Virus record (IMG/VR): IMGVR_UViG_3300037116_000074
Location: 1 to 64,000 of that record
Length of the DNA: 64,000 nt
Origin: a virus
Reading direction: 5' to 3' (one strand)
This document shows positions 18,444-43,517 of this stretch, in pieces. Numbering within the stretch: the first letter of the stretch is position 1; every line of letters begins with the position of its first letter. A program made the position numbers and the translations under genes. Below the pieces are notes generated by a model. That model searched no databases. It was not told where the DNA came from and was given only the letters and a program-made list of their open reading frames with translations.

Positions 18444-19118
18444 ATGAAAAGTTTAATACTCACTTTAGCATTTATCGCAGGCACTCCATGCTTTGCACAA
18501 TCTTTATCTCCTGGTGATATTCCAGCGATTAATCTAGAATCAAATAATGCCCGCGGTGGTGTTACTGGTGTGCTTCCATTAGCCAATGGCGGTACTGGTG
18601 GTTCTGCTCCGAATATTAACTTAGCCACTCAAGTAACAGGTATACTATCTAATGCTAATGGTGGTAGTGGAGTGAGTGCGGCGGCAGTAACGAACGGTCA
18701 ATTATTAGTTGGTAAAACTTCAGATCATAGTTTGAATTTAGCAACATTAACAGCCGGTGCCAATGTAACAGTCACTAATGGTGCAGGAACGATTACAGTA
18801 GCTGCTGCCAATACCTATACTCCAACAGTCAGTCAACCAACAGCTTCAACGCTTGCGGCTGCTTTCGATAATGCATATCTTATAGATACAACTGCCAATG
18901 CCTGTGCAGTCACATTGCCAACAGCAGTGGGACATGCTGGACATCAGATAGTTGTTTTCTTACAAGTTAAGGGTGGAAGTAATGCCGTGACAATGGCATC
19001 TACATCATCACAAACTATTAATGCTGCTGCTGCTTCAGGGTTTGGCATATCTACCGCTAATAAATCTTATACATTCATGAGCGATGGTGCTAACTTTGTA
19101 GTTATTGCTTCTGAATAA
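18444..19118 (+). CDS. Fibre-like protein with signal peptide
   Basis: MKSLILTLAFIAGTPCFA|QS; VTGVLPLANGGTG shaft motif; C-terminal IDTT..VTLP..SDGAN module. Confidence 0.7.
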   Translation: MKSLILTLAFIAGTPCFAQSLSPGDIPAINLESNNARGGVTGVLPLANGGTGGSAPNINLATQVTGILSNANGGSGVSAAAVTNGQLLVGKTSDHSLNLATLTAGANVTVTNGAGTITVAAANTYTPTVSQPTASTLAAAFDNAYLIDTTANACAVTLPTAVGHAGHQIVVFLQVKGGSNAVTMASTSSQTINAAAASGFGISTANKSYTFMSDGANFVVIASE

Positions 19119-19127
19119 CAAGGAACT

Positions 19128-21185
19128 ATGAAATACTTATGGACACTATTAATAACTCTGAGTTTGTGTATATCAACAGTATACGCACAGTCGGGGTTAT
19201 TCATAGCTCCTAGTAGCTCAGTCATAACTTCACCCGTTACGGGGCAATCCTGGCTATTTAATAGTACGAATAATACTGTAAGTGTCTGGACCGGTGCATC
19301 CTATCTAACAAAGAGTGCTCCATTTAGTAATTTAGTTGCTACTACTAATCCAACATCTGCTAACGACAACACACAGAATTATGTAGTTGGTAGTTTCTGG
19401 ATTAATCAAACAACACAAACTTTATATATGGCTACAGCGGTTGGTACTAGTGCAGCTGTTTGGGTTGGTATGAATGTAGTTACATCATCTATCCCTCTAG
19501 CGAACATCCAGCAAGGTGGTGCTACAAATGGTCAATCTCTTATATGGAATAATGGCGGTGGGGTTTGGGGTCCGGCTAATCCGGTTATTGCTCTGGCTCA
19601 GTTATCGCAATCTGCTGCAACGTCTGGGCAAGTGCCTGCATGGAATGGTTCCGCGTGGGTAGCTAGTGATGCTGGAGCTGGTACGGTCACTTCGGTGTCG
19701 ACTGGTAATTTAAGTCCTTTATTTACAGCAGCAATAGCTAGTCCAACTTCTACACCGGCTTTAAGTTTTAGTTTAAGTACCTGTGCATCGAAAAGTATTC
19801 TGTCTAATATAACATCCGGTTCGGCTGCACCTGCATATAACGTATTAACGCTCACGGCTGGCACAGGTTTAACTGGCGGTGGGAACCTTGCAGATAGTCC
19901 AACAATTACTTTATCTACTCCTATATCAATTGCTCATGGAGGAACTGGAGCTGCTAGTGCTAGTGCAAATACATGGTTTGGTAATAATACTGGTTCCCCA
20001 GCTACGCCTGGGTTTGAAAGTCTAACAGCGGCAGATTTACCAACAACTACCGTTAACTCAGTTACGAATAGTTCTACATTAGTTACTGGTGCTATTAGTG
20101 GTCAAGCACTTACGCTATCAGATGCCCACGCTGCAATTCCTATTACAAGTGGTGGGACAGGTGCAATCACACGACCTTTAGCAATCCTGAGTCTTATAGC
20201 TGGATCTCCAACTACAGGACAGGCATTAGAATTTGATGGCACGAATTGGGTGCCTGCCACTGTTTCAGGAACCGGTACGGTTACAAGCTTTAGTTCGGGT
20301 AATGCATCACCCTTATTTAGTACATCAGTAGCAACAGCCACTACAACACCAGCACAAACATTTACTGTTAGTAATGCTGCGGCGCATACTATCTTATCGA
20401 ATGCGACTAGTGGTTCAGCAGCACCTGCCTACAATGTATTAAGTGTTATTGCTGGTACTGGTTTAAGTGGGGGTGGTACGTTAGATACTAATCCTACTAT
20501 TAATTTAACCGTCCCTGTTAGTAACAGTAATTTAGGTACAACGGTAGTTACCAGCGCTGGAAATTTAAGTCCGGTTTTTACTACTACAATCACAGCACAA
20601 ACATTAGGGTTTGCTTTAACTGCTGTAGCACCGCATGCATATTTAGGAAATCAAACCGGTAGTTCAGCAGCGCCGGCATATCAAGTAATCGATGCGGCTG
20701 ACTTACCTACAACAACAGTAAATACAACGGGTAATTTAAGTCCGTTGTTTACATCTAGTATTAGTGGACAAGCCTTAAGTTTTAGTCTTACCAATGCAGC
20801 GGGACATAGTATTTTATCTAATACATCAAGTAGTCCTGGAGCACCAGCCTATAATGTATTAAGTGTTACTGCTGGCACTGGTTTAACTGGTGGTGGTACA
20901 TTAGATACTAGTCCAACATTAAATTTAGATACACCAGTATCAGTAGCTCATGGTGGTACGGGTACTGCATTATTCACTTCGGGCCAAGCAACATTTCTAA
21001 CAGCAGGTAGCGTTGCCGTAGCAGATGCTAGTATAACCTCTAGTAGTATAGTAGTAGTATCAGTAGCAGGTAGCACAGCCCTAGCGGAAGAATTATCAGT
21101 AGCAGTATCCGCAGGTGTTGGATTTACAATTTATTCGACGAATGTAGTTTCAACAGCTGTAGTTAATTATATAAGGGTGAAATAA
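19128..21185 (+). CDS. Long fibre-like protein with signal peptide and internal repeats
   Basis: MKYLWTLLITLSLCISTVYA|QS; repeated GNLSPLF, SAAPAYNVL, AGTGLTGGG and HGGTG motifs. Confidence 0.75.
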   Translation: MKYLWTLLITLSLCISTVYAQSGLFIAPSSSVITSPVTGQSWLFNSTNNTVSVWTGASYLTKSAPFSNLVATTNPTSANDNTQNYVVGSFWINQTTQTLYMATAVGTSAAVWVGMNVVTSSIPLANIQQGGATNGQSLIWNNGGGVWGPANPVIALAQLSQSAATSGQVPAWNGSAWVASDAGAGTVTSVSTGNLSPLFTAAIASPTSTPALSFSLSTCASKSILSNITSGSAAPAYNVLTLTAGTGLTGGGNLADSPTITLSTPISIAHGGTGAASASANTWFGNNTGSPATPGFESLTAADLPTTTVNSVTNSSTLVTGAISGQALTLSDAHAAIPITSGGTGAITRPLAILSLIAGSPTTGQALEFDGTNWVPATVSGTGTVTSFSSGNASPLFSTSVATATTTPAQTFTVSNAAAHTILSNATSGSAAPAYNVLSVIAGTGLSGGGTLDTNPTINLTVPVSNSNLGTTVVTSAGNLSPVFTTTITAQTLGFALTAVAPHAYLGNQTGSSAAPAYQVIDAADLPTTTVNTTGNLSPLFTSSISGQALSFSLTNAAGHSILSNTSSSPGAPAYNVLSVTAGTGLTGGGTLDTSPTLNLDTPVSVAHGGTGTALFTSGQATFLTAGSVAVADASITSSSIVVVSVAGSTALAEELSVAVSAGVGFTIYSTNVVSTAVVNYIRVK

Positions 21186-21186
21186 T

Positions 21187-22911
21187 ATGCGTCAGTTAAT
21201 TCTTTCTAGTTTATGTTTCTTCCTGTTAATACAACCAGGCTATACGCAAGTTGGCTTATTTGTTCGACCTGATAGCAGTTCACTATCTGCTCCGGTTTCT
21301 GGACAAACTTGGTTATTCAACAGTACCAATAAGACTATGCAGGTCTATAACGGAAGTATATTTCAGGTAGCATCAGCGCCGCTTAATAACTTCGTTGCTT
21401 CAGTAGCACCTACTTCTAGTAATGACAATACACAGGGATATACTCCTGGCTCAGCTTGGTACAACACAGTAACGGGTTTTACTTATCAATTAGTGAATGC
21501 CGCTACTAGTGCCGCTGTTTGGGTTCAAACAAATAATTTAGGTGCTTTATCCATACCTCTAACTTCACTACAGGCTGGTGGCGCTAGCGTTGGTCAATCA
21601 TTATTATTTAATGGAACGCATTGGGCCCCTGGTAGTCCGGCTATTAATTTAAATCAACTAGTTAACTCAGGTGCCCTTGTCAGTCAAGTCCCCGTATGGA
21701 ATGGCACTAACTGGGTGCCTCAAACATTATCCGGAGGCGGCGGTGGTGGTGGATTACCTGTTGGTGGATCTGATAATAAGATATTAAGTTATGCCAGTAG
21801 CACTGCTGGTTGGTTTAATGGGTTGAGTACAGTCAGTTCTTTAACGGTAAATACAGGCGCAACATTAACAGTTAATTCGCCAAGTGTAATCGTTGTAGCA
21901 CCATCTGGTAGTGACCAAGTTCTATATTTACCAGTGGCATCGACCTGTTTGGGACAGATGTTCACCATAGTTCAAAGTTATACTTTTAGTTTATATGAAA
22001 CTACTATTGAAACACAGGGTAGTGATCATATTGAACTCTTTAATGGGTTATCGGGTACTCCGTTTGGAGGACAGTTAGTCATTGGTGGCAATGGTCATGG
22101 TATACCATATTCTGCACCAGTTACTGTTATTAGTGATGGTATTAACTGCTGGCATCAATTAGCACCTTCTCAACAACCATATGCACCGGCTCCATTGGCG
22201 CTGAATGTAGTTGCTCAATCTAGCGACTTCAATGCTCATACGCAGGAAGTAGATCTAGTAACACTAACATCAGCCAACGTAACTGCAACTTTGCCTGATG
22301 CAACTTTATATCCAGGACAACAATTAGTTGTTATTTTAAATCAGGGTAGTTCAAGTTCATATTCATTACTTTTCGCTACGACTGCCGGCCAGCTTATTAA
22401 TGCTAGTAACTTCTGGTATAACCAAGGGTTTAGCGGTGGAACGCAAGCAATTGTGTTTACTTTTATTAGCAATGGAACTAATTGGAATGCTTCTTTTAGT
22501 GGCGATATGTTAGCTGGATTATTTAACGGTCCTAATAACGGATACCAAACTGGACAAATAGCAATGTCTACTAACGGAAATACTATTCAACTGCAATCAA
22601 TTTTATCCGCACATTCTGTCAGTAGCGATACTCTTGCCTATAGTATGAATTCTTATTTTGTAGATACTAGCGGCGGTGACGTTGTTATAACCTTAGCGGA
22701 CGCAGTTGCGGAATCGGGACAGGAGATATCCGTAACCTATGCAGTAGCTGGCAACAATGTTAAATTCGCTTCAACCAGTTCGCAAACTATTAATGGTGGA
22801 GCAGCTACATTCTTCACGTATTTAACTGTCGTTGGATCAAGTGTGAGATTTGTTTCGGATGGTTCTAATTGGTGGTGTGTTGCCAATACATTCGGCGGTG
22901 TTGGACCATAA
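21187..22911 (+). CDS. Fibre-like protein with signal peptide; N-terminus paralogous to 19128
   Basis: MRQLILSSLCFFLLIQPGYT|QV; about 170 aa shared with 19128; three SDG.NW-type modules. Confidence 0.75.
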   Translation: MRQLILSSLCFFLLIQPGYTQVGLFVRPDSSSLSAPVSGQTWLFNSTNKTMQVYNGSIFQVASAPLNNFVASVAPTSSNDNTQGYTPGSAWYNTVTGFTYQLVNAATSAAVWVQTNNLGALSIPLTSLQAGGASVGQSLLFNGTHWAPGSPAINLNQLVNSGALVSQVPVWNGTNWVPQTLSGGGGGGGLPVGGSDNKILSYASSTAGWFNGLSTVSSLTVNTGATLTVNSPSVIVVAPSGSDQVLYLPVASTCLGQMFTIVQSYTFSLYETTIETQGSDHIELFNGLSGTPFGGQLVIGGNGHGIPYSAPVTVISDGINCWHQLAPSQQPYAPAPLALNVVAQSSDFNAHTQEVDLVTLTSANVTATLPDATLYPGQQLVVILNQGSSSSYSLLFATTAGQLINASNFWYNQGFSGGTQAIVFTFISNGTNWNASFSGDMLAGLFNGPNNGYQTGQIAMSTNGNTIQLQSILSAHSVSSDTLAYSMNSYFVDTSGGDVVITLADAVAESGQEISVTYAVAGNNVKFASTSSQTINGGAATFFTYLTVVGSSVRFVSDGSNWWCVANTFGGVGP

Positions 22912-22914
22912 TCT

Positions 22915-23061
22915 ATGACATTACTTCAATGGTTAGTAATTGGATTTTTAGTCTTTGTTATTAGTGTGACGTTTACATTAGGATTTTTAAATCTTAGTCA
23001 TCCTATATATCAAGAATCCGAAGATCCATACATACATAAACAATCATATCTGTTAATTTAA
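22915..23061 (+). CDS. Small single-TM protein
   Basis: MTLLQWLVIGFLVFVISVTFTLGFL..., 3 nt after the fibre gene. Confidence 0.4.
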   Translation: MTLLQWLVIGFLVFVISVTFTLGFLNLSHPIYQESEDPYIHKQSYLLI

Positions 23062-24155
23062 CTAACACCCTGTGTAATTTGATTGCACGTTAGGTGAGTC
23101 ATAAAGCCATCGCCTTCAGATGAACCATAATCAGGCATACTAAAGCTCTGCATTATCCCTACGATAAATAATTGCCTGTTATCTAATCCTAATAAATCGT
23201 TTGATTCGGCTTCGAATATTTTTACTTGGTCATTAATATTTAAACTAGAATCACCTTCAACGACCATTTTAACAACTAGATTTTTACGTTGAATTTCATC
23301 AGCTACTGCATTCCATAATTGTTCTGCATTCTGGGCATTAATATCTGGACGGTTCATGCTAATAAACTTACCTGTACCATCACCTACTGCATGTTCATAA
23401 ATGATCGTTGCCTTACCGTCTCTATCGTATCCATGTAGTCGTAAAGTGAAATTATTACATCGTCTAGATTGCTGCATGATAGATAATGTTAAAATTGGAA
23501 TTTGTGTGATATCGGCAGAGGATGGAGTCGGACGCCAATAATATTTATGTGAACTTGCACCCAGGCCTGGGGCGGCAAAATGTAATACTTTATGTTGATC
23601 TACGTAGGCAACATAACCTGCTTCGTCGGCTAATTGTGTGATAATCTTCCAGAGCGGCCTAGGTGACGTGCTCAGCGCCCAGTCTTCACCCTGGAATGTA
23701 GACGCCTTGATACCGGCCATGACAGAACTCACTTGAATATTGGCTTGTAAGCCATTGTCATCTGCAATGCTTTGCACTACCTGACTAACAGTTTGATTCA
23801 GATATTTATCCAAAGTTTCAGTCTTATCACGTAACACTGCACTATAATCCCGACCATTGATTTCAATTTCATCCGTTTCCCAGATGCCTTCAATCGTGTC
23901 AACAATACCATCAAAAATAATCTGCGAACTACCTTGAGTGCTATCAAGAAGAATAATTTGACATTCCATCGGATCAGTTTTTTGCTGATCGGCAAATATA
24001 TCATAATTGATTGATTTTAGTTGCTGAATAGAAGTCGTAACTTCAAATGTGCATAAATTACCATAGGAGGTGAGATGGCATTGCCAATGAAGAACTGGTA
24101 TTGTGTGTCCATTTAGAATCACTTGCGTTGTTAACTGTCGTACATTGTTGCTCAT
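23058..24155 (-). CDS. Baseplate hub protein (gpD/Mu gp44-like)
   Basis: IFDGIVD, INGRD, WKIITQLADEAG...LHF, VEGDSSL; position in the tail operon. Confidence 0.8.
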   Translation of the reverse strand: MSNNVRQLTTQVILNGHTIPVLHWQCHLTSYGNLCTFEVTTSIQQLKSINYDIFADQQKTDPMECQIILLDSTQGSSQIIFDGIVDTIEGIWETDEIEINGRDYSAVLRDKTETLDKYLNQTVSQVVQSIADDNGLQANIQVSSVMAGIKASTFQGEDWALSTSPRPLWKIITQLADEAGYVAYVDQHKVLHFAAPGLGASSHKYYWRPTPSSADITQIPILTLSIMQQSRRCNNFTLRLHGYDRDGKATIIYEHAVGDGTGKFISMNRPDINAQNAEQLWNAVADEIQRKNLVVKMVVEGDSSLNINDQVKIFEAESNDLLGLDNRQLFIVGIMQSFSMPDYGSSEGDGFMTHLTCNQITQGVS

Positions 24156-25245: not shown

Positions 25246-25663
25246 GATAAACTCCCAGCTTATTCAATAGTTGTTTTACTAATGGATACATAGCATTCAC
25301 AGTCATCGCATACAGTTCTCTATACTTAGGACGCTGACAATTAGCAGCATTATGACCGGGATCTAGTCCAGGGGTATAATATTTCGCTATGTACTTTAAA
25401 GCAGTTTGTGTATTGATAAGGGGGTCGAAGGCCTCATCAGGCGTTAGCTTACCTAGTTCACCATGTACATTTAATTGAAATAAACCAAATGATTGATAGT
25501 TATCGCCAACAACATACGGATTGAGTCCAGATTCTAAAGTGGCAATGCTAACAATAAAGATAGGGTCCAAGTGCGCTGCTACAGATTCACTTATGAGCAT
25601 CTGAATAATAGCTTTATGCTCTGGAGAAATAGAATTTTGCAATAATGTATCGATGAGTGGCAT
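25238..25663 (-). CDS. Lytic transglycosylase (SLT family)
   Basis: IATLESGLNP...SFGLFQLN...FDPLIN. Confidence 0.85.
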   Translation of the reverse strand: MPLIDTLLQNSISPEHKAIIQMLISESVAAHLDPIFIVSIATLESGLNPYVVGDNYQSFGLFQLNVHGELGKLTPDEAFDPLINTQTALKYIAKYYTPGLDPGHNAANCQRPKYRELYAMTVNAMYPLVKQLLNKLGVYHG

Positions 25664-27798
25664 TAATGACTTACTCCGTGGCTATAGATTTTCGGTGAAT
25701 AACTACCGCCGGGATTGCTAGCTGCATGATTCATCTTTTGGGCGGATTTGAGTTGCTTGCGTTCTACATGATGGCTAACGTGCTCTCCGATTTTCTTACC
25801 ATCCAGGTGGATATCGTTATGAATTGTAATCGGTTGTGGTGGTGGTGGATTAAGATTTAAGCGTCCAGATGATTTAAAAGATTTAGCTAAATTTGCATCA
25901 ACTAAAGATTCAACATGTGGTGGTGCGATCATATATTGACCTTGACCATGTGTTGCAGGTAAACCAGCTCCAAGTAAGGGTAGAAATGAAGATTTCATGC
26001 CGGGCGGGGGCGGTGGTACGTTTAATTTTCGATAATCAGCAGCCCAGTCTTTGCTACCAGATTTTGTATGTGTCGTTAAACGACCACCCTGACCAGCAAA
26101 ATGTTGGCCAACCTGACCGGCTTCAAATAAACGATCTCCCAGTGCATTACCAATCTGAGTACCAGGACGCATCAGGGCTTTTTCAGGACTGGCGTTTCCG
26201 GTAAGCCATGTGGCAATCGGTCCTACATTATCATTTAAAATTTTAATCAATGCACTTAATGTATCGATACCACTATTCAAAGCTGCAACAACTTGTTTAT
26301 TATCTCCCAGTGCATTACCAAACGCTTCAAACGCTGCCATCATCTTAGCCCAGCGATCTTCAACAGAAGTACTGGTAGCTAAAACCTGATCTAGATTTTT
26401 AGCACCCTTAACTCCAAGCTGTTGTTGTTTGACGGTCTTCTCATATCGTCCAGTCATGATTTCAATCACTTCACCAATGGCTTTTTGTGTAGCACCATAG
26501 AAGAATGTTCCAACCATGCGCTTCTGTTCGACATCTTTTTGTTTTTCGAATTCGCCAGGTTTAAGATGAAAATAACGCTCCATACCAGCTTTCACTGGTC
26601 CTTGTAAGAATCCAATACGATCAGATGCTGCCTGCTCATACCACGGTGGTGGTTTTTGAGCTAAATAATTATGATAAACATCTTTATTATAAGTATCACT
26701 ACCTGCGCCAGTTAGAGTACCACCATTATGCAACACATGCTTACCTGATGGCATATCTATATATGTAGAACGTCCACCGCGGCCTTTATGATGCTGAGCA
26801 AATTCTTCGATACCAGGAAACATACCTGCTTCTTTCCAGATACCAATCATCTGCTTAGACATAATACCTTGTGAGAATATTCTATCCAAGGCCAAGGCAG
26901 ACGAACCAACACCGCCCATTCCACCACCGCCGCCGCCTGCTGTTAATTGTTCACTGATACCGTGAAATAATTCTCCAAATAATGAGAATTTATTAGCTCC
27001 CAACTTAGCACCGCGTGATTGTTGTAATTGCCTAGAGAATTGTGATAATGGAACTTGTCCTCCATAATACCCTTCGTATTGAGCCAACAAATTAGCAGTC
27101 TCTGATTTTTGTTTAATAGTACGGTCGCCCATCTTTTCCCAGATTTGATTCATAAGCATGCCAGTAGCACCCTCTTTTGAATCTTCAACATTAAGCTTAC
27201 GCATACCTAAATCAATTCGATTCATTAATTCCATTGAATCAATTACACCCCTGGTGTCAGGTGAAATCGCTGCACCCTTAATTGCATAATCGACATTCTG
27301 TGCTGCATTCATGGTATATTTCCCGGACGAAGCTAATGACAACGCTTTACGCCTAATCTCAGCCTGTTCATCACCTGAATAGCGACTTAGTTTTAATCGT
27401 TGTGCATTCTTTTCAAAATCAACGGCATTACCACCTACAGCGCCTACGCCTTGGATAAGCTTATAAATTCCTAATAGGGGAGCAACTGTACGCATTAAGC
27501 CGCCCAGGGAAGCGCCTAACATTCCGACTTGTCTAGTAGCGCCTGTAGCGGCTGTACCAACGTTTCTAACGCCAGTATGTATATTCTGCAAGCCACGTTC
27601 TTTCCGGGTCACAGAATCGATGCTTTGACCCATAGCATGGAACTGCTGATTAACTTTCTTCTGCTGAGACTCCATCATAGATAAGGTTTTGTTCATCTTA
27701 GAGAACATACCATCCATTTTTTGGAGCATAGGCAAGATCACCTTTAACTGCTGTTCCAGGTTACTCTTTAATTGAAGCTCTATGCCTACTTTATCCAT
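25663..27798 (-). CDS. Tape measure protein
   Basis: 711 aa helical protein downstream of the frameshifted chaperone; C-terminal IHLDGKKIG motif. Confidence 0.8.
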   Translation of the reverse strand: MDKVGIELQLKSNLEQQLKVILPMLQKMDGMFSKMNKTLSMMESQQKKVNQQFHAMGQSIDSVTRKERGLQNIHTGVRNVGTAATGATRQVGMLGASLGGLMRTVAPLLGIYKLIQGVGAVGGNAVDFEKNAQRLKLSRYSGDEQAEIRRKALSLASSGKYTMNAAQNVDYAIKGAAISPDTRGVIDSMELMNRIDLGMRKLNVEDSKEGATGMLMNQIWEKMGDRTIKQKSETANLLAQYEGYYGGQVPLSQFSRQLQQSRGAKLGANKFSLFGELFHGISEQLTAGGGGGGMGGVGSSALALDRIFSQGIMSKQMIGIWKEAGMFPGIEEFAQHHKGRGGRSTYIDMPSGKHVLHNGGTLTGAGSDTYNKDVYHNYLAQKPPPWYEQAASDRIGFLQGPVKAGMERYFHLKPGEFEKQKDVEQKRMVGTFFYGATQKAIGEVIEIMTGRYEKTVKQQQLGVKGAKNLDQVLATSTSVEDRWAKMMAAFEAFGNALGDNKQVVAALNSGIDTLSALIKILNDNVGPIATWLTGNASPEKALMRPGTQIGNALGDRLFEAGQVGQHFAGQGGRLTTHTKSGSKDWAADYRKLNVPPPPPGMKSSFLPLLGAGLPATHGQGQYMIAPPHVESLVDANLAKSFKSSGRLNLNPPPPQPITIHNDIHLDGKKIGEHVSHHVERKQLKSAQKMNHAASNPGGSYSPKIYSHGVSH

Positions 27799-29468: not shown

Positions 29469-31391
29469 CTATGAAGCCGGTTGAGACGATACTACATTTT
29501 GGACACTCACTGTAGTTCCGCCTTGTAGAGTGAATATTAAATACCAGATAGAAGACAAATATGTTGCGGCAACGAATACGCTACAAATATGTTTTGCAAT
29601 AGTTGTAGGAGTGTTGTAACCAGGACTGTTATTAGTTTGGCTAAATTCACACAGAGTTACATATGCATCCAACTGAGTGTTAGAGACTAGTTGCGCTAAG
29701 AATGAATTCAAATTAGATTTGATTGCAGATCTCACTGGATCTACAACTTGTTGTGACTGTAACTTACCAATGAACTGGCCTAAATTAGCACCAACTGATT
29801 GAATTAAGAAATTAGTCATGCGTGAGTATTCTATTGGTGCAGTACCAATATTATTTAAGGATGTATTCACAGCGGTAACAAACCCAAACTGAGGACCAGC
29901 TGGAATAGGATTGCTCACCAATGCGATACCGTTTGTATTAGCTAAACCAATATCGGCATCATCGTAAGGGCCAATATTAGCCAATCTAGATGTAGTGACA
30001 ACTGCCTGTAGCGATTTGTTTAATGGAGATTGTTCTGGGCTTAAAGCAGCAATTAAACCGCCCAAAGGACCAGTCGGAGGAACGTAGCGTAACAACCCAT
30101 TAACTGGATCAAACATTTGAGGCCAGTCTATGAAGCACATCACTTGATAATTATCAATACCGTAACTATTTAAATCAGCTACAGCTGCTGAAACAGTAGT
30201 ATCTATTGGTTCACAAATAGCCATCAGTATGCCATTTTGAGATCCAATCGCTTGAATTGTTGGAGCAACAGTCATATCAGCTAAGCCAACACACCATGCT
30301 TGCTGTACAGATGGAATACATTTTAAGAGAGCGTATAAACCCGATCCTTGAGCACTAGCGCCGCCAGTTGGAGAACCAACTAACATAGCTGAAGTAACTC
30401 CACTACGACCATCAAGGCCGCCGGTTAGTGGTGTTGCAACTTGTAACTGTGGAGCATGAGTTGAACTAGCAGCGACAAAGCGGGCTAATTGCGATGCTGG
30501 GCGGGTTGGACCAGCTCCACCACTTAAAACTGATGTTAAAGCTGCCCAGAAAGCAGAAGTATTTGGCAGTGCTTGATAAAATTCTTGAGACTTGCCGGCC
30601 CATGCGGTTAATAGAACATTCACTAAAGTCGAACTAGTGCCTGGAAGAATCGACATGCGAATTGCATTACCAAGGACGCCCGTATAAAGAGCTGTTAAAG
30701 TACCGCCAATAACGGCTGAAGGAGATGTAATGGTGATAGTTTCAGTATTACTCCCTATGGCATAGGTGATAACAGGAATGATATCTAAATCTGTAGAAGC
30801 TGTAACAGTAATTGTCAAAGATGTTGATGTGGCTTTAATACCAGCAGCGGTTAGTGCGGTATTTGCATTAATAGCATTTTTAAGAGCTACTGTAATCGTT
30901 GATAATGTATCGCCGGATAAAACAGTATAAGGTACAGTAACTGGACTACCAGTTATGGCGCTGTTTGTAAATACTAAATTTATAACATCGGCAGTAGTTT
31001 TACTTCCACCGACTAAAAGAGTTTGTGTATCTGCGGTATTGTCATTCACTACCAGACTGGCAGCATCATCTGTACCATCAGATACACGCACTTCTTGAAT
31101 AGATAAGCCTAGTTGACTAGCTTGTTGTAACGATGTCCATACGTCTGTAGCAGCATCATGAATATCAGTTAATGAAGCGGCACTCACTGGACCAAAGAGA
31201 ACATTTTGTGACGCCATATCACCAATCAGAGTTGCCTTATTTAAAGGACCCCAAGAGGCCGTACCAATCATACCTACCACAGAAGCCGGAGCGCCCGTAA
31301 TGGAGGCTTGCGGAGGCTGAACTACTAAATAAACCGCTGGAACCGTTAAGGCTGATGGGTTAATTTGATCGGGGTTGATAATTATCGGCAA
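29469..31391 (-). CDS. Tail sheath protein
   Basis: VPAVYL, IGTASWGPLN, VRVSDGTD, LTGGLDG, YVPPTG, LSPEQSPLNK; TTG start at 31391 after SD GGGAG. Confidence 0.92.
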   Translation of the reverse strand: MPIIINPDQINPSALTVPAVYLVVQPPQASITGAPASVVGMIGTASWGPLNKATLIGDMASQNVLFGPVSAASLTDIHDAATDVWTSLQQASQLGLSIQEVRVSDGTDDAASLVVNDNTADTQTLLVGGSKTTADVINLVFTNSAITGSPVTVPYTVLSGDTLSTITVALKNAINANTALTAAGIKATSTSLTITVTASTDLDIIPVITYAIGSNTETITITSPSAVIGGTLTALYTGVLGNAIRMSILPGTSSTLVNVLLTAWAGKSQEFYQALPNTSAFWAALTSVLSGGAGPTRPASQLARFVAASSTHAPQLQVATPLTGGLDGRSGVTSAMLVGSPTGGASAQGSGLYALLKCIPSVQQAWCVGLADMTVAPTIQAIGSQNGILMAICEPIDTTVSAAVADLNSYGIDNYQVMCFIDWPQMFDPVNGLLRYVPPTGPLGGLIAALSPEQSPLNKSLQAVVTTSRLANIGPYDDADIGLANTNGIALVSNPIPAGPQFGFVTAVNTSLNNIGTAPIEYSRMTNFLIQSVGANLGQFIGKLQSQQVVDPVRSAIKSNLNSFLAQLVSNTQLDAYVTLCEFSQTNNSPGYNTPTTIAKHICSVFVAATYLSSIWYLIFTLQGGTTVSVQNVVSSQPAS

Positions 31392-31453
31392 GGTAGTACA
31401 CTCCCAGAATGTTAGCAATTGTAACTCTGAGAATATTTTAACCTACTTTAGGG

Positions 31454-34570: not shown

Positions 34571-34601
34571 AATTTACTCCTTATGTGTTATACTTTTTAA
34601 G

Positions 34602-36860: not shown

Positions 36861-36936
36861 TAATTAATACTCCACACTTGTTGTATGAATATATTTTAAG
36901 CTATATACCAGTATTCCACTATGGTAATATGGACAT

Positions 36937-38579: not shown

Positions 38580-38791
38580 TATTCACTTACCTTTGTTAAT
38601 ATACCGGGACCTGGATTAAGTTCGAATGCAACGCTGTCTTGTAAACGTCGCGCATATCGCGTTGGAAAATCGCCTTTAAATGGAGATTCACCGAAAGCTT
38701 GTTCAATAGTAGAGCTACCCATAACCGTTTCGGGCATATTGGTTTTCAACTTACCTTGAACATGTATTACTTTTCCTGGTTTAGCTGACAT
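38579..38791 (-). CDS. Hypothetical protein
   Basis: SD GGAGG; lies in the capsid operon. Confidence 0.55.
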   Translation of the reverse strand: MSAKPGKVIHVQGKLKTNMPETVMGSSTIEQAFGESPFKGDFPTRYARRLQDSVAFELNPGPGILTKVSE

Positions 38792-38800
38792 AGCAACCTC

Positions 38801-39223
38801 CTAGAGAGAGCCAGCCGAAGCTACCCAGTTGGAACCATTACTAACTAATGAAAGACTAGTCGCAGGAGCAGTAAGCTTATATGAAGAATTGAACGAACTA
38901 GCAGAAAGAGTATTGATTGTTTGAGCAGTAGCGCTACCAAATGGAGCTACAGTTGCTAATGATACAGTATGGCTAGAACCCGTTTTAACCATCATAACTT
39001 TGAGTCCTTTACCGGCTGCTACTTGAGTAGCATCAGGAAGAGTCACAGTTATACTGGCAGCAGTTGCATCACAAACTAAGGTAGTTAATGGTGCAGCTAA
39101 AACAGCAGTAGCAGATACATTAACTAAAACGGAACCAGGCACATCACTAGGAGCCAAAGATTGAGCAAAGGCAGGTATGGATAAAGTTAAACTAGCTAAT
39201 AGAGAAAGTATTAACCGATTCAT
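38801..39223 (-). CDS. Signal-peptide protein consisting of one fibre-type module
   Basis: MNRLILSLLASLTLSIPAFA|QSLAPSDVP; CDAT..ITVTLPDA...LVSNGSNW; start 39223 after SD AGGAG. Confidence 0.7.
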   Translation of the reverse strand: MNRLILSLLASLTLSIPAFAQSLAPSDVPGSVLVNVSATAVLAAPLTTLVCDATAASITVTLPDATQVAAGKGLKVMMVKTGSSHTVSLATVAPFGSATAQTINTLSASSFNSSYKLTAPATSLSLVSNGSNWVASAGSL

Positions 39224-39224
39224 A

Positions 39225-39464
39225 TTATTCATCTCCTGAAACATGATCTAGACCGCCATTATCGACAGAATTGCCGAAAATAGAATCCATTTCTTTAGCA
39301 CATGGACGGAACGAACCTTCTTTCACTTCGCCTACGGCTGGTTGGATTTTGCCTTCACCAGGCAATCTCATATCAGCTGGAGACATTGGACGTTGGCGTC
39401 CAACACTATGGCCTTTCTTGGACATGTTTTGTGTATTTACGATTTGAGCTTTAGCGTCAGACAT
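39225..39464 (-). CDS. Hypothetical protein
   Basis: SD GGAGG; directly after the major capsid gene. Confidence 0.55.
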   Translation of the reverse strand: MSDAKAQIVNTQNMSKKGHSVGRQRPMSPADMRLPGEGKIQPAVGEVKEGSFRPCAKEMDSIFGNSVDNGGLDHVSGDE

Positions 39465-39480
39465 ATTTCCCTCCCAGGGT

Positions 39481-40890
39481 TTAGCAGTGTTCTATAACAA
39501 CAGCGCGTTTGTATGCAGCATTGCTAGCAGTAGGTATAATCGAAGGATTGGCAGTTAAGTCTGTTGGACATACCACACCGAATACGGATAAGTAAGTCAT
39601 TTGAACTTGACGACCCATATTGTCGATAGGAGCACGTACTATGTGAGCTATGTGATCAACCATATAGATATTACTGACTGAACCAACTGCTTCACCGCGT
39701 TGAGCGAAACTTTCTAATCCAGAGAAGTGTCCTTGGTACAAACCACCCATACCGGTAATCAATACACGGTGGATACTTGTTCCAGGAAGCAAGGCTTGCA
39801 TACCAGCAGCTGCGACAGATGCTTGTAAGTAAACTTCAGTTGTAGGTATGAAGGTCATGCCTAACAAAGTAAATACTTGGTTGTTTTGATACTCAGGGTT
39901 ATTACCACGACTTGCGTACATGATTTGGAACTGAGAATCTATAAGCAATTCAGTCATTGAATGATAATCAAGGTAGCAATGATATGTACCATCACGATGA
40001 CGGGGAATAGCATTTTGAGACAAACTTGCTTGAGCTGTTTGAAGCAAACTTATGCTTAACAAATCTTGCGAAGTAAGTTGGTTTGTACCTTGCTTGTTGT
40101 TTGGACGATAAACAGGAGATCCTAATGAGGATTGAAGGGCATCACCACCGACTGGTAATGTACCGGCAACTGGATTAATAGTTAAATAACCGGATATACC
40201 ATCTGATGCACTACCAACTACGGATGCTGGATATACAGAATTTGTCGGTACATCAGCTACAGCAGCTACAACATTGAATGTTTGAGTTACGCCACCATTA
40301 AATGCAACTTCTTGCACTGGAAGTGGATTATCAACAGCAACTGGAGTTGGAACACCATTGACCCAATTGACTTGGAATCCGCGAATGTCATCAACATAAA
40401 TCTTAGCTGTGGTTGGATCGGTTTCACCCATTGCAGCATTACGAATCCAGGTGTTGCCTGTATTGTATGCAGCGAACCATGTTTGTTTAAGAACACGTTC
40501 TATGGTTTGAGCAGCTTCAACACCATTAGTATGGGCTAAAGCCATTAATTGATCGGCAATACCTTCTTGTTCTTCTAACAAATCTAATTGCTTGTTACCA
40601 GCATATTGATTCACGTTATAAGTGTATTGTTCTAAACTTGGGGTTGTGGCAGTTAAACCATTATCTAAACCAGTAACATTGACTGGATTTAATGGTGTTG
40701 GTTGCGGTGGGGTACGACCTATTTTAGTCTTAGTGATACTATTACCTGCGCGTATAGGTATCATTTCGACAACAACATCATGAGAAAAAGCTGACTCTGA
40801 ATCAAGACCTTCTTCAAACGAACGGGCTAAAAAGCCTTGTTGGAATGCTATATTAAATGCGCTTCCTGGAGGAACTAAACCACCGGCCAT
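39481..40890 (-). CDS. Major capsid protein
   Basis: 469 aa after the scaffold gene; QQGFLARSFEEGL, LDNGLT, EQYTY, HIVRAPID, YKRAVVIEH. Confidence 0.85.
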   Translation of the reverse strand: MAGGLVPPGSAFNIAFQQGFLARSFEEGLDSESAFSHDVVVEMIPIRAGNSITKTKIGRTPPQPTPLNPVNVTGLDNGLTATTPSLEQYTYNVNQYAGNKQLDLLEEQEGIADQLMALAHTNGVEAAQTIERVLKQTWFAAYNTGNTWIRNAAMGETDPTTAKIYVDDIRGFQVNWVNGVPTPVAVDNPLPVQEVAFNGGVTQTFNVVAAVADVPTNSVYPASVVGSASDGISGYLTINPVAGTLPVGGDALQSSLGSPVYRPNNKQGTNQLTSQDLLSISLLQTAQASLSQNAIPRHRDGTYHCYLDYHSMTELLIDSQFQIMYASRGNNPEYQNNQVFTLLGMTFIPTTEVYLQASVAAAGMQALLPGTSIHRVLITGMGGLYQGHFSGLESFAQRGEAVGSVSNIYMVDHIAHIVRAPIDNMGRQVQMTYLSVFGVVCPTDLTANPSIIPTASNAAYKRAVVIEHC

Positions 40891-40897
40891 AATAAAT

Positions 40898-40949
40898 ACC
40901 TCTTTAACTCCTGACGTTTATAAAACTTAATCTTGGAGTTTAAAAAGGC
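40898..40949 (-). promoter_or_regulatory. Hairpin overlapping the capsid gene Shine-Dalgarno
   Basis: mRNA GCCUUUUUAAACUCC pairs with GGAGUUAAAGAGGU, which contains the SD. Confidence 0.45.
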
Positions 40950-41105
40950 TTCTAGCCGAACAACGTTATCTAACGTAAAAACTCTTATGAATGTACATAG
41001 TTTAACATAATTTTTCGTTAATGTATAAATGTTTACTCATAAAAGAACCCAGGAAGATAATAAATACGATCCTGGGCACACTTCCCCGCTACGATTTTTA
41101 TTACA

Positions 41106-41807
41106 TTAAAACGTAGAGTTTTTGGTTGCTTGTCTAAATTCAGCTTCAACTTGTGACAATGGAACCTTGCGATCTAACGCATTAAAATGCGTCGGTTGTA
41201 CGCCTGGTTGCGGTGCAATACCAGGTTGACCGGTTGGTCTAACGCTTGGAGCCACAACTGGCGCTACGGGAGCTGGAGTAGGTGCTTCATCTGCTTTAAA
41301 CAATAATGGTTTGTCTTGTTTGAGACGCGCCACTAATTCAGCAGCCTTAGATGGATCTGCCTTAAGTTCGTCACCATATTTAGCTTGTAATGCTGTAGAC
41401 AGTAAATCCGTTTCTAAAGCTCCAGCAGCAAGCATTTCGCGCTCAAGGCTGGATTGAACCGCCTGTCTGGAGAATTTTTCTTCCAGTTCACGAACTTTAG
41501 CTTCGGCTTTATGAGCTAATTCTTTATATTCACCTTGTTCAGTTAAGCGTTTTGTTTCGGCTTCCTGTTCTTTATTAAGCATTTCAGTGAGTTTAGTTTC
41601 AGCTTTGCGGGCTTTTTCATCGGCTACACGATAATTTCTTTCATAATTTTGCTTATCACCCAGCGCCTTTTCGAATAGCTCACGCAATTCTGGTTCCAGA
41701 CTAGCTAAACGTGCTTCTAAATGATGTGGTTTGCCTTTAAGGGCTGCATCATCTAATGGAGGTGGACCGTTAGGGTCAGCACCTGGTTGATTTCTATCAC
41801 CGCTCAT
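41106..41807 (-). CDS. Capsid scaffolding protein
   Basis: Charged coiled coil (EQGEYKELA), LKQDKPLLF, Pro-rich tail; upstream of the capsid gene. Confidence 0.85.
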   Translation of the reverse strand: MSGDRNQPGADPNGPPPLDDAALKGKPHHLEARLASLEPELRELFEKALGDKQNYERNYRVADEKARKAETKLTEMLNKEQEAETKRLTEQGEYKELAHKAEAKVRELEEKFSRQAVQSSLEREMLAAGALETDLLSTALQAKYGDELKADPSKAAELVARLKQDKPLLFKADEAPTPAPVAPVVAPSVRPTGQPGIAPQPGVQPTHFNALDRKVPLSQVEAEFRQATKNSTF

Positions 41808-41876
41808 ATTGTCTCCTTGAGGGCTATGCCCTAATAAATGCCATCAGGCATAAGTTGTTATGTACAGATTAAAATT

Positions 41877-42272
41877 TTAAGGGGCTACCGCCGAAATATT
41901 AACGTTTAAATTACCACCGGTTGGATCGCCAGTTTGTACTGCCTTAATCCATCTAACACCGGGCCAAGATACGAATGTAATACCTAAAGCTGTTATCGCT
42001 GAACCAAGTACAAAGCCAGTAGCTCCGCTTACGGATGGATTATCATCGCTTAATGAACCCCAGAACTGAACTGAAATAATAGCAGTAGCACCGCCAGAAA
42101 GTTCAATCGCTGCACGACTAAACGCCCGAAAGTCTACCCAGTTAGAGGTATCAGCTACAACAGTATCATTAATTAAATCATAAGCAATAGACGAAGAAAC
42201 AGCCAAAGCATTGACTGGATTGGGTGGATGGACGTCATAAGGTATTTGTCCATCGGATGCGTTAGTTGCCAT
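41877..42272 (-). CDS. Probable virion beta-sandwich protein
   Basis: SD AGGAG; VQFWGSLS, VRWIKAV. Confidence 0.5.
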   Translation of the reverse strand: MATNASDGQIPYDVHPPNPVNALAVSSSIAYDLINDTVVADTSNWVDFRAFSRAAIELSGGATAIISVQFWGSLSDDNPSVSGATGFVLGSAITALGITFVSWPGVRWIKAVQTGDPTGGNLNVNISAVAP

Positions 42273-42308
42273 AAAAATCTCCTGAAGGGTATTGATAGTT
42301 TAACATGG

Positions 42309-43517
42309 TTATAGAATTTGCGCTAGGGTCGCTGATCCTGCTCCACCTGCACCGCCAGTACCACCTTGAGTATTAGCTTTAACACCACCAGTACCACCAT
42401 TAGCTTGCACAGTTCCAGTATTAGATAGTGTACCTTGATAAAATATCCAAACTGCGCCACCACCTGCGCCGCCGCCGCCTGATGAACCGCCTATACCATC
42501 ACCACCAGTACCACCATTTCCTCCATTTCCTCCATTTGAAGATATAACTCCGCTACTTCCTATAGTAAGATTTCCACCAACAATTAGAACAAGATAGCCA
42601 CCACCTCCGCCGCCGCCTGTACTGCCAGATGTACCAGCTGAACCAGTTCCACCTGACCCACCAGGATTACCAGCACCACCACCTGCTCCAGGGCCATTAG
42701 CACAATTAGCTCCAGCACCGCCAGTACCACCATTAGTAGATGCATTACCACCAGTTACACCATTATAAGATCCGCCACCCCCGCCAGATCCACCACAAAA
42801 AGATGTACCAGCAGTACCATTACCACCAGCTGCATTAAATCCACTACCGCCACCACCACCACCACCGGGTGCATTAGTTGACGTTCCACCAGCTGAACCA
42901 GTTGTAGCTGGAATAGCACTAGCACCAGCACCACCAGATCCACCTGTAGCCGGTGTATTGTATGTAGTAGTTGTTACTGGCCCAACACCTGTAGTTATAC
43001 CATCTGTTGCAGATGAATATTCAATAATATTGGTAGATGAACCAGAAGCATTAGCCCCTAAACCATTCATACTTATTGTGCCATTGACTGTACAGTTTCC
43101 AGTGACGTAAATAATTAAACCTTTACATCTATTCGATACACTTAATATCTGCCCACTATTAACGGTTAACGAACTGTAATTTTGAATAATAGCCGGGCCA
43201 TCAGTTATAGAAGTTAAATTTGTACTACTACTAATAGTAACTGCACCATCGGCACCCGTACCAAAATAATTACTTGCAGCGGCTGCTGGCACCCAGTTAG
43301 TGCCGTTATATACTACTATGTTCCCAACACTGGGACTGCCAGTAATTAAATTATTAATAGCCGCGGTCCCCGTAGTAGCAGCTGTACCACCGCAATTAAC
43401 AGGTAAAGTACCAATCGTTGGAGACGAAGCGGTGGGATGGTAATCAGCCCCAGGAATCCCGGCGAAGCACTGAGTGCTAAATATTAAACATATTAATAGA
43501 CTGATTAGTTTTTTCAT
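42309..43517 (-). CDS. Glycine-rich fibre/spike-like protein with signal peptide
   Basis: MKKLISLLICLIFSTQCFA|GI; YFGTGADGAVTI, NYSSLTVN, long GGxG tracts. Confidence 0.75.
   Translation of the reverse strand: MKKLISLLICLIFSTQCFAGIPGADYHPTASSPTIGTLPVNCGGTAATTGTAAINNLITGSPSVGNIVVYNGTNWVPAAAASNYFGTGADGAVTISSSTNLTSITDGPAIIQNYSSLTVNSGQILSVSNRCKGLIIYVTGNCTVNGTISMNGLGANASGSSTNIIEYSSATDGITTGVGPVTTTTYNTPATGGSGGAGASAIPATTGSAGGTSTNAPGGGGGGGSGFNAAGGNGTAGTSFCGGSGGGGGSYNGVTGGNASTNGGTGGAGANCANGPGAGGGAGNPGGSGGTGSAGTSGSTGGGGGGGYLVLIVGGNLTIGSSGVISSNGGNGGNGGTGGDGIGGSSGGGGAGGGAVWIFYQGTLSNTGTVQANGGTGGVKANTQGGTGGAGGAGSATLAQIL

What the first reader, a model, noticed from the sequence alone, without database searches (positions are those of the whole stretch)
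18444..43517. Fibre/decoration-type proteins carrying Sec signal peptides: a possible exported virion-appendage or surface-decoy system
Seen: five proteins in the structural operons begin with classic signal peptides (basic start, hydrophobic core, small-residue cleavage site). They are 18444 (MKSLILTLAFIAGTPCFA|QSLSPGDIP), 19128 (...STVYA|QSGLF), 21187 (...QPGYT|QVGLF), 39223 (...SIPAFA|QSLAPSDVP) and 43517 (...STQCFA|GIP). The rest of each protein is made of fibre-type motifs (VLPxANGGTG, WNGxxWVP, TLPDA...SDGxNW, Gly-rich domain). The same modules occur without a leader in 16374, 43566 and 44834. The first mature residues are conserved in pairs (QSLxPxDxP; QxGLF), suggesting the processed N-terminus matters. 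Established: tailed-phage fibres assemble in the cytoplasm and normally lack signal peptides. Inference: these proteins are exported and either join the virion in the periplasm or at lysis, or act as secreted receptor-blocking decoys or adhesins.
Basis: partly seen in the sequence, partly recalled or inferred. Interest (0 to 1): 0.88.

Follow-up and report, generated by a model that had tools for sequence, protein, structure and literature searches.

The report
Phage fibre proteins with export signals
In an uncultured 72-kb contractile-tailed phage, five proteins built from tail-fibre and knob modules begin with genuine-looking bacterial secretion signals, so they seem to leave the cytoplasm where phage particles are built, and where they end up is still open.

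Summary
The window is the first 64 kb of a complete 72,375-bp myovirus-like genome. All five named proteins start with a basic residue, an uncharged hydrophobic core and a small-residue cleavage site. Four of the five start codons have a Shine-Dalgarno motif.

Relatives keep the leader but not its sequence. In the 19128/21187 family, 20 of 20 aligned members have one. Leader identity is 29.7% against 64.1% for the first 20 mature residues.

The shared 'TLPDA...SDGxNW' module folds like the gp10-type XD/knob domain of phage receptor-binding complexes (Z 13.8).

One side claim fell. The likeness to 16374 is only glycine-rich composition.

New here: the small knob protein after the capsid gene is leaderless in three relatives, and its +1 glutamine occurs only where a leader is present.

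Export is well supported by sequence (about 0.85) but was not tested with a trained predictor or at the bench. The destination is open. My best guess (0.4) is accessory virion appendages that meet the particle at lysis. The main rival (0.3) is fibres acting at the host envelope, like Bdellovibrio MAT fibres.

This scan has noted signal-peptide-led tail fibres before, on other uncultured phages.

The parts
18444..19118 (+). 224-aa protein: leader (about residues 1-18), conserved mature start QSLSPGDIP, fibre repeat (NGGTG), C-terminal XD/knob domain (residues 125-224)
   Evidence: Translation. GGAG at -10. The orthologue in L006 has a different leader and the mature start QTLAPLDIP. AF2 gives pLDDT 86-94 for 140-224. 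Fold match to CBA120 TSP4 residues 79-178: Z 13.8, rmsd 1.9 over 96 residues.
19128..21185 (+). 685-aa fibre: leader 1-20, conserved beta-rich N-domain (about 21-117), long GTVTxFSxGNLSPLFT-type repeats, C-terminal end whose counterpart in homologue P0007 matches K1-lyase_C
   Evidence: 20 of 20 aligned family members have a leader and Q at +1. Homologue P0007 matches PF24146 at 28.6 bits against a cut-off of 27. AF2 model of residues 1-160: mean pLDDT 76, with a helix at residues 2-13.
21187..22911 (+). 574-aa paralogue: leader 1-20, same N-domain (50% identical to 19128 over 176 aa), two XD/knob domains (about 343-436 and 479-567)
   Evidence: Orthologues in L011 and L013 keep a leader ending CYA or CFA before QVGLF.
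38801..39223 (-). 140-aa protein directly after the capsid gene: leader 1-20, N-terminal arm QSLAPSDVPGSVLVNV, one XD/knob domain
   Evidence: GGAG at -14 before 39223, none before 39244. 8 of 10 database homologues have a leader and 2 do not. The G001 orthologue is leaderless.
42309..43517 (-). 402-aa protein in the head operon: leader 1-19, conserved mature module GIPGADYHPTA...TLPVNCGGT, WNGTNWVP segment, glycine-rich body
   Evidence: All 4 close homologues with the N-module (P0285, P0286, P0287, P0296) keep the leader but have different bodies of 409-663 aa. No SD motif before either candidate ATG.
43566..44645 (-). Leaderless fibre-like protein with an XD/knob domain near the N-terminus and a distal tip shared with 44834 and 45918
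Evidence: Its tip is 47% identical to the tip of the leader-led P0018.
44834..45877 (-). Leaderless paralogue of 43566 (46% identity) with the same XD/knob domain
16374..17996 (+). Leaderless main tail fibre, in the usual place after the baseplate J and I-like genes. It is not demonstrably related to the five.
   Evidence: phrog_863 and phrog_6202, tail fibre. No composition-corrected match to the five.
13108..14262 (+). Baseplate J-like wedge protein, context that marks the baseplate operon
   Evidence: PF04865, E 9.4e-23. phrog_6, E 4.8e-35.
39481..40890 (-). Major capsid protein, context that marks the head operon
   Evidence: phrog_1357, E 3.2e-15. 26-33% identical to the capsid proteins of 7 cultured phage records.

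Best explanation
The five proteins are made late, together with the baseplate and head genes. They are exported by Sec, and signal peptidase I cuts them just before the conserved residues (Q-S-L..., Q-x-G-L-F..., G-I-P-G-A...). They fold outside the cytoplasm into trimeric fibres or knobs built from the same modules as virion receptor-binding proteins.

My most likely reading is that they are accessory, non-essential virion appendages: extra fibres and a small knob. Their freed N-terminal arms or domains would dock on the finished particle only when cytoplasm and periplasm mix at lysis. The essential baseplate and main fibre are leaderless and would be built in the cytoplasm as in studied tailed phages.

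Shown: the signal-peptide features, their conservation pattern, the module content, the XD/knob fold, the operon position, and the leaderless orthologues.

Inferred: export itself, the cleavage site, trimer formation, and above all attachment to the particle.
For: Export:
- Leaders differ in length (19-26 aa) and sequence (29.7% identity), while the next 20 residues are 64.1% identical. 20 of 20 family members have A, T or G at -1 and Q at +1.
- The same pattern holds for the 38801 family and the 42309 family.
- Four of the five leader ATGs have an SD motif.

Virion link:
- The genes sit 1-13 nt from their neighbours at the end of the baseplate/fibre operon, and inside the head operon. Relatives L006 and L011 keep the same positions.
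- The shared module has the fold of CBA120 TSP4 XD (Z 13.8), a Klebsiella phage baseplate protein (Z 11.5) and the Pa223 capsid-spike knob (Z 10.2). Foldseek also lists T4 gp9 and gp10.
- Conserved N-modules carry swapped distal parts, as virion fibres do.
- The orthologue of 38801 is leaderless at the same position after the capsid gene in G001, with an in-frame stop two codons upstream. P0281 and P0282 are also leaderless as called. The protein therefore appears to work whether or not it is exported, which fits something that binds the outside of a finished particle.
- Pa223's capsid spike is anchored to the capsid by its N-terminal 40 residues alone (passages read).
Against: - I know of no tailed phage, and found none in five literature searches (for the Q-rule), that adds exported proteins to its particle. 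The time available at lysis is short.
- 19128 and 21187 lack the usual leaderless fibre N-terminus. In 13 IMG/VR fibres and one MAG protein (14 of the 16 complete ORFs examined), that N-terminus or other leaderless sequence precedes the same core motif. So the known way of docking on a baseplate is absent.
- The layout of signal peptide, conserved beta-rich N-domain, fibre and variable tip is that of Bdellovibrio MAT fibres, which sit on the producer cell.
- Mature cysteine counts are 1, 1, 3, 1 and 5. They give no sign of a need for disulfide bonds that would explain export.
- The upstream DNA of leaderless P0281 and P0282 could not be checked.
- SignalP was not run and no experiment exists.
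Confidence: 0.4

Rival explanations
1. The proteins are exported but never join the particle. They act at the envelope or outside the infected cell. They could be fibres anchored to the host surface or periplasm by their conserved N-modules, in the manner of MAT fibres. Or they could mask receptors on the cell and its debris, so that progeny or competing phages do not adsorb there.
For: [quoted passage not shown] The MAT N-domain is thought to bind a surface element of the producer (passages read).
- The canonical baseplate-docking N-terminus is replaced.
- Many uncultured homologues carry signal-peptide-like starts: 73 of 116 M-starting hits, and 29 of 136 M-starting hits.
- Porphyromonas phages encode signal-peptide proteins that their authors read as envelope modifiers (passages read).
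- From recall, not from a call: envelope proteins lie beside fibre genes in known phages (T5 Llp, lambda Lom, Cor).
Against: - The genes are packed inside late structural operons with gaps of 1-13 nt. Their products would appear only shortly before lysis, whereas known exclusion proteins are made early or from the prophage (recall).
- Intact leaderless orthologues of 38801 exist in three relatives. A function confined to the periplasm does not explain them.
- None of the five has a lipobox, by my reading of the N-termini.
- The only in-genome hint of a copy of the phage's own fibre tip (42309 versus 16374) is compositional.
- Direct terminal repeats and the phage's own replication genes suggest a virulent phage. 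That is an inference.
Confidence: 0.3
2. The hydrophobic N-termini are not export signals. They might be wrong start codons, uncleaved membrane tethers used during assembly in the cytoplasm, or segments removed by a phage protease.
For: - The public gene call for 19128 starts 100 residues downstream (P0001).
- No SD motif precedes 43517 or 43535.
- Matrishin et al. note that signal-peptide predictions on capsid proteins may reflect cleavage by the prohead protease.
- No trained predictor was run here.
Against: - Homologues cover the full N-terminus, and conservation begins exactly at +1 rather than at a downstream methionine.
- A structural segment would be conserved in sequence, but the leaders are 29.7% identical against 64.1% just after them, and they differ in length.
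- Four of the five leader ATGs have an SD motif.
- An uncharged helix of 10-14 residues after a basic start would be taken up by Sec/SRP in any case (general knowledge).
Confidence: 0.07

Closest known systems
Bdellovibrio bacteriovorus MAT (mosaic adhesive trimer) fibres (Caulton et al. 2024, PMC10769870; passages read)
   Same: Both have a signal peptide, followed directly by a conserved beta-rich N-domain (about 130 aa in MATs, about 100-115 aa in 19128 and 21187), then a phage-fibre-like trimeric shaft with swapped, diverse tips.
   Different: MATs are chromosomal genes of a predatory bacterium and are displayed on its own surface. These genes lie inside the structural operons of a phage. 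Homology between the two N-domains could not be tested because no MAT sequence was within reach. No S74 domain was found in the five.
gp10-type XD domains of branched receptor-binding complexes (CBA120 TSP4-N, PDB 7rej; T4 gp10 and gp9)
   Same: The shared 'TLPDA...SDGxNW' module superposes on TSP4 residues 79-178 (Z 13.8, rmsd 1.9, 96 aligned, 21% identity). Foldseek also lists T4 gp9 and gp10.
   Different: In those phages the proteins have no signal peptide, and the domains lie near the N-terminus as docking platforms (function recalled, papers not read). Here the domain is C-terminal in the three leader-led proteins and N-proximal only in the leaderless 43566 and 44834.
Pseudomonas phage Pa223 capsid spike gp52 (bioRxiv 10.1101/2025.06.11.659172; passages read; PDB 9ny6)
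   Same: It is a trimer held on the capsid by a short N-terminal arm and ending in a knob. The knob matches the module found here (Z 10.2). The 38801 protein is an arm plus a knob and lies next to the capsid gene.
   Different: gp52 has no signal peptide and has a long beta-helix between arm and knob. Capsid binding of 38801 is only a guess.
Signal-peptide proteins of Porphyromonas gingivalis phages that obey the Bacteroidetes Q-rule (Matrishin et al. 2023, PMC10367356; passages read)
   Same: These are phage genes whose predicted signal-peptidase cut exposes an N-terminal glutamine.
   Different: In the passages I read they are of unknown function and are not described as fibre-like. Their list is in a supplement I could not open. 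The host here is probably not a Bacteroidota member: an SD motif precedes 26 of 54 starts, and 0 of 6 other signal-peptide ORFs have Q at +1.
Envelope proteins encoded beside fibre genes (T5 Llp, lambda Lom, Cor); recalled, no call
   Same: They are exported phage proteins encoded next to receptor-binding genes.
   Different: Those are lipoproteins or outer-membrane barrels unrelated to fibres. These five have no lipobox and are built from fibre and knob modules.

Membership tests
Sec / signal peptidase I (SPI) signal peptide | Basic n-region, uncharged hydrophobic h-region of about 10-15 residues, small residues at -3 and -1 | tested here: met
   All five meet it by eye and by my heuristic (which flagged 14 of 120 ORFs genome-wide). 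SignalP was not available.
Sec / signal peptidase I (SPI) signal peptide | Across homologues the leader varies in sequence and length while the cleavage site and mature start are conserved | tested here: met
   29.7% against 64.1% identity, leader length 19-26, 20 of 20 sequences. The same holds.
Sec / signal peptidase I (SPI) signal peptide | Actual translocation and cleavage | not testable with these tools
   This needs PhoA or BlaM fusions, or N-terminal proteomics.
Lipoprotein (SPII) or Tat signal | Lipobox [LVI][ASTVI][GAS]C, or a twin-arginine motif | tested here: not met
   By my reading, no such motif is in the five N-termini printed (for example GTPC, LSLC, STQC); no pattern scan was run.
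gp10-type XD / knob domain | Fold of about 95 residues superposable on solved members | tested here: met
   Z 13.8, 13.3, 12.4, 11.5 and 10.2 to 7rej, 7rfv, 24qj, 9f4a and 9ny6. Model pLDDT is 86-94 over residues 140-224.
gp10-type XD / knob domain | Forms a trimer and serves as a docking site for another fibre | not tested
Bdellovibrio MAT fibres | Signal peptide followed at once by a conserved beta-rich N-domain | tested here: met
   19128 and 21187: the leader, then strands at 25-115 in the AF2 model, 50% identical between the two paralogues. This shows the same layout, not homology.
Bdellovibrio MAT fibres | Sequence or fold homology of the N-domain to the MAT N-domain | not testable with these tools
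   No MAT sequence was within reach, and the MAT N-domain is unsolved. The best PDB match for my model was Z 4.8.
Bdellovibrio MAT fibres | Display on the surface of the producing cell | not testable with these tools
   This needs microscopy or cell fractionation.
Trimeric autotransporter adhesin (a label that one source gives to homologues P0005 and P0009) | C-terminal YadA-type membrane anchor | tested here: not met
   Pfam found no family on 19128 at E up to 0.01. The C-terminus of homologue P0007 matches K1-lyase_C instead.
Bacteroidetes Q-rule substrates | Gln at +1 after the SPI cut | tested here: met
   Four of the five. 20 of 20 in A3. All 8 leader-led database homologues of 38801 have it and none of the 3 leaderless ones does.
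Bacteroidetes Q-rule substrates | Host belongs to Bacteroidota | tested here: inconclusive
   The host is unknown. An SD-type motif precedes 26 of 54 starts, and 0 of 6 other signal-peptide ORFs have Q at +1. Both argue against, but neither is proof.

The most novel reading that the evidence does not exclude
Assembly of a tailed phage in two compartments. The essential particle is built in the cytoplasm. A set of accessory fibres and a knob is exported by Sec, trimmed by signal peptidase so that the docking N-termini are freed (with a +1 glutamine that could cyclise), folded in the periplasm, and snapped onto the particle only when the compartments mix at lysis. The leader would be an evolutionarily optional switch that decides where a given appendage matures, as the leaderless orthologues of 38801 suggest.
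Probability: 0.3. Interest if true: 0.9.

Novelty: new variant of a known kind. Interest (0 to 1): 0.6.

Why it matters
Textbook assembly of tailed phages takes place wholly in the cytoplasm. If receptor-binding appendages are routinely exported, several things follow. Virion proteomes, host-range prediction and phage engineering would have to allow for a periplasmic step. Start-codon calls that skip the leader, as for this very gene (P0001), would be systematically wrong.

If instead the proteins stay on the host envelope, they are phage-borne counterparts of predator adhesins. They could change how infected cells or their debris bind phages or other cells.

Either way the family is large and uncultured. 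There are 1,917 representative proteins at E up to 0.001 for the 18444 modules, and many homologues have leaders. It is also easy to test with PhoA fusions and particle proteomics.

The leaderless and leader-led orthologue pairs found here offer a natural experiment.

Tried and rejected
Cultured relatives:
- blastn of 16000-23000 found nothing in the phage collection.
- tblastn of 19128, 18444 and the leader-led homologue P0064 also found nothing.
- So no particle proteome can be borrowed from a cultured relative.

Host:
- The window holds no tRNA.
- The one genome-contig scan gave a single weak hit, 36% identity over residues 57-120, in a Candidatus Dojkabacteria MAG, inside a leaderless 459-aa protein.
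- Cluster look-up gave no organism names.
- The Atlas gave only viral clusters below 0.9 for the N-domain, and viral clusters for the deacetylase-like gene.

Fold and family of the 19128 N-domain:
- No clear PDB match. The best was Z 4.8 to collagen XV/XVIII trimerisation domains, under the tool's own noise level.
- PDB sequence searches of 19128, 21187 and 42309 gave nothing meaningful.
- Pfam found nothing on the five.

Moron-like promoter or terminator around 38801, which has gaps of 257 and 221 nt on either side: the scan gave no more sites than shuffled sequence. One search was likewise uninformative.

Receptor-decoy argument from 42309 versus 16374: rejected, because the match disappears with composition correction.

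Disulfide-driven export: rejected as a motive. Mature proteins have 1, 1, 3, 1 and 5 cysteines, and the cysteines of the 42309 body also occur in leaderless homologues.

Leaderless P0281 and P0282: I tried to fetch their DNA through the one metagenome scan. Only leader-bearing L029 and distant loci came back, so their start codons remain unchecked.

Literature: searches found no paper describing signal-peptide-led fibres of tailed phages. Papers PMC3517404 and PMC3426561 were opened for passages and proved irrelevant. Supplements are closed, and Supplementary Data 4 of PMC10367356 may list which Porphyromonas phage genes carry signal peptides.

Complex prediction was not used. There were many possible arm/knob pairs, only one job, and a negative result would have said nothing.

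The look-up of sequencing runs and read laying were not used, because expression would not tell location.

Full report
**What the window is**

The window is bases 1-64000 of a 72,375-bp IMG/VR virus record with direct terminal repeats, rated complete. G+C is 35-44%, and there is no tRNA.

It encodes a contractile-tail phage:
- a baseplate J-like protein at 13108-14262 (PF04865, E 9.4e-23; phrog_6)
- a spike with an Apex motif at 10925-12049
- a sheath at 29469-31418 and a tape-measure-like protein at 25663-27798
- a major capsid protein at 39481-40890, which is 26-33% identical to the capsid proteins of 7 cultured phage records

The collection of cultured phages holds nothing closer.

**The observation**

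Each has a basic residue at position 2-3, then 10-14 uncharged hydrophobic residues, then a small-residue site (CFA, VYA, GYT, AFA, CFA). By my reading of these N-termini there is no lipobox and no twin arginine; no pattern scan was run.

SignalP was not on hand, so I wrote a crude rule-based test. It flags 14 of 120 ORFs of at least 60 aa in the whole genome. I judge 3 of those 14 false by eye. Five of the 9 fibre-module proteins are flagged against 9 of the other 111 (Fisher p = 0.001).

A GGAG-type motif sits 7-14 nt before 4 of the 5 leader ATGs. For 38801 it favours 39223 over 39244. Neither 43517 nor 43535 has one.

**Do relatives keep the leader?**

Yes, and in the manner of real signal peptides.

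- 19128: of 151 database homologues I read 17. An alignment of 20 family members has a leader in 20 of 20. That alignment holds the two window paralogues, two proteins from relative L011 and 16 database proteins. Leader length is 19-26, with A, T or G at -1 and Q at +1. Mean pairwise identity is 29.7% in the leader against 64.1% in the next 20 residues. One further homologue, P0016, starts inside what looks like the end of a leader.
- 18444: the orthologue in L006 has a different leader before QTLAPLDIP.
- 38801: 8 of 10 database homologues have a leader, as do L009 and L029.
- 42309: the four homologues that share its mature N-module all have the leader.

AlphaFold models the 19128 leader as a helix (residues 2-13) ahead of the strand-rich domain and leaves the 18444 leader at low confidence (pLDDT 43-50 over the first 20 residues).

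The public gene call for 19128 itself starts 100 residues downstream (P0001). The homologues show that start to be wrong.

**What the proteins are made of**

With composition-corrected BLAST:
- 19128 and 21187 share a 176-residue N-terminal region (50% identity).
- A module of about 90 residues ('TLPDA...SDGxNW') is shared by 18444, 21187 (two copies), 38801 and the leaderless 43566 and 44834.
- 19128 and 42309 share a WNGxxWVP segment.
- 16374, the leaderless main fibre (phrog_863 and phrog_6202), shares nothing significant.

The E of 4e-19 that I first obtained between 16374 and 42309 without correction falls to 0.46 with it.

**The fold of the shared module**

I modelled 18444 from a 22-row alignment. 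Mean pLDDT was 71, and 86-94 over residues 140-224. The C-terminal module matches:
- CBA120 tailspike 4 residues 79-178: Z 13.8, rmsd 1.9 A, 96 residues aligned, 21% identity
- the Acinetobacter phage Solidus tailspike: Z 12.4
- a Klebsiella phage KP1 baseplate protein: Z 11.5
- the knob of the Pseudomonas phage Pa223 capsid spike: Z 10.2

Foldseek adds T4 gp9 and gp10.

This is the gp10-type XD/knob fold of phage receptor-binding assemblies. In solved cases it serves either as a docking platform near the N-terminus (recalled for CBA120 and T4, papers not read) or as a distal knob (Pa223, passages read).

The N-domain of 19128 modelled at mean pLDDT 76 but has no convincing solved counterpart (best Z 4.8).

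**Genomic setting**

18444, 19128 and 21187 close the baseplate/fibre operon, with gaps of 13, 9 and 1 nt. 42309 and 38801 lie inside the head operon, and 38801 directly follows the capsid gene.

Relatives keep this layout (L006; L011/G001). G001 lacks an 18444 orthologue.

**New points**

First, the leader is optional in one family. In G001 the capsid protein is 67% identical to the window's. There the gene after the capsid gene encodes a 118-aa orthologue of 38801 (35% identity over nearly its whole length). It keeps the arm motif TIAPLDVP but begins with ten hydrophilic residues. An in-frame stop lies two codons upstream, and it has its own GGAG motif. P0281 and P0282 are also leaderless as called, but I could not fetch their DNA.

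Second, Q at +1 is present in all 8 leader-led database homologues and in none of the three leaderless ones. The glutamine therefore goes with processing, not with the arm.

Third, N-modules are portable. The leader plus the GIPGA...CGGT module heads bodies of 402, 409, 487, 496 and 663 aa.

Fourth, tips move between leader-led and leaderless fibres:
- The tip of P0016 is 35% identical over 269 aa to the tip of the leaderless main fibre of L006.
- The tip of P0018 is 47% identical to that of leaderless 43566.

Fifth, the core of the 19128 N-domain (about residues 67-113) occurs in ordinary leaderless fibres of other viral contigs. There it follows a conventional N-terminus or lies deeper in the protein. 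Of the 16 of 20 loci with a complete ORF over the match, 14 have no leader: 13 IMG/VR fibres and the Dojkabacteria MAG protein. The two with a leader belong to the close clade.

**How common it is**

- Of 123 proteins held from the 19128 search, 116 start with M, and 73 of those are flagged as signal-peptide-like, 39 with Q at +1.
- Of 149 representatives from the exhaustive 18444 search, 136 start with M and 29 are flagged. That search found 1,917 proteins at E up to 0.001.
- The heuristic is crude. Its false-positive rate in the phage's own genome is roughly 3 in 109.
- This scan has noted signal peptides on tail fibres of other uncultured phages several times, mostly short-tailed ones. Later checks upheld the observation and gave the 'exported virion parts' reading 6-30%. 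Those are unchecked AI notes, not evidence.

**Host**

The host is unknown.

Most signal peptidase I substrates of Bacteroidetes expose N-terminal Gln, the Q-rule (PMC5837995, abstract only). Porphyromonas phages carry such genes (PMC10367356, passages).

Here, however, an SD-type motif precedes 26 of 54 listed starts. None of the six other signal-peptide ORFs in the genome has Q at +1. I therefore think the glutamine is a trait of these protein families rather than a mark of a Bacteroidota host.

**How it most likely works**

Export and cleavage are well supported by sequence (about 0.85). The destination is inferred.

I favour accessory appendages that dock on the finished particle at lysis (0.4), for four reasons:
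- The genes are packed inside late structural operons.
- They are built from virion receptor-binding modules, with conserved proximal parts and swapped distal parts.
- The XD/knob fold is known from baseplates, tailspikes and a capsid spike that is held on by its N-terminal arm alone.
- The same protein works with or without a leader in sister phages, which points to a target that can be reached after lysis.

Against this reading:
- There is no precedent, and little time is available at lysis.
- The canonical fibre anchor is missing.
- The layout closely matches that of Bdellovibrio MAT fibres, which stay on the producer's surface.

The rival reading, that the proteins act at the envelope or on debris and never join the particle, gets 0.3. 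That the leaders are not export signals at all gets 0.07. The rest is unassigned.

**Verdict**

The reading as exported proteins is supported, but their final role is not settled. It is a new variant of known kinds (phage fibres; secreted MAT-type fibres). It is not unique in this scan. What this case adds is a contractile-tailed example in which only accessory parts carry leaders, the identification of the shared module as an XD/knob domain, and natural pairs of leader-led and leaderless orthologues.

Noticed in passing
window 6522-7064, 48813-49172, 50173-50691, 50842-51306, 54895-55350, 56693-57088; beyond the window, genome 64285-64599 and 65513-65737: Six to eight further ORFs outside the structural genes also start with signal-peptide-like leaders, so about a tenth of this phage's genes do. 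One (50173) matches phage endonuclease families (phrog_452, E 1.4e-14). None has Gln at +1.
   Followed up: partly
window 19128-21185 (database protein P0001): The public gene call for this gene starts at an internal Met 100 residues downstream (585 aa against 685 aa). That call drops the leader and most of the N-domain. Gene callers may systematically hide such leaders.
   Followed up: partly
L006 1123-1680: A close relative has an extra 185-aa gene inserted between the baseplate J-like and I-like genes. Its main fibre (600 aa) carries a different tip from the window's 540-aa fibre.
   Followed up: no
L042 (G001) 1176-1739: In relative G001 a leaderless 187-aa ORF with 56% identity to an 86-residue stretch of 19128 sits between the 42309 orthologue and the next head-operon gene (the 41877 orthologue). 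The window has no gene there.
   Followed up: no
window 17999-18430: A 143-aa protein follows the main fibre, in the place where a fibre chaperone would be expected. Its C-terminal 35 residues are nearly identical in L006. It matches no Pfam or PHROG family and is absent from G001 together with 18444.
   Followed up: no
window 38580-38800 and 39224-39480: 38801 is flanked by unusually long non-coding gaps of 221 and 257 nt. The 257-nt gap is also present in G001. Simple promoter and terminator scans found nothing above chance.
   Followed up: partly
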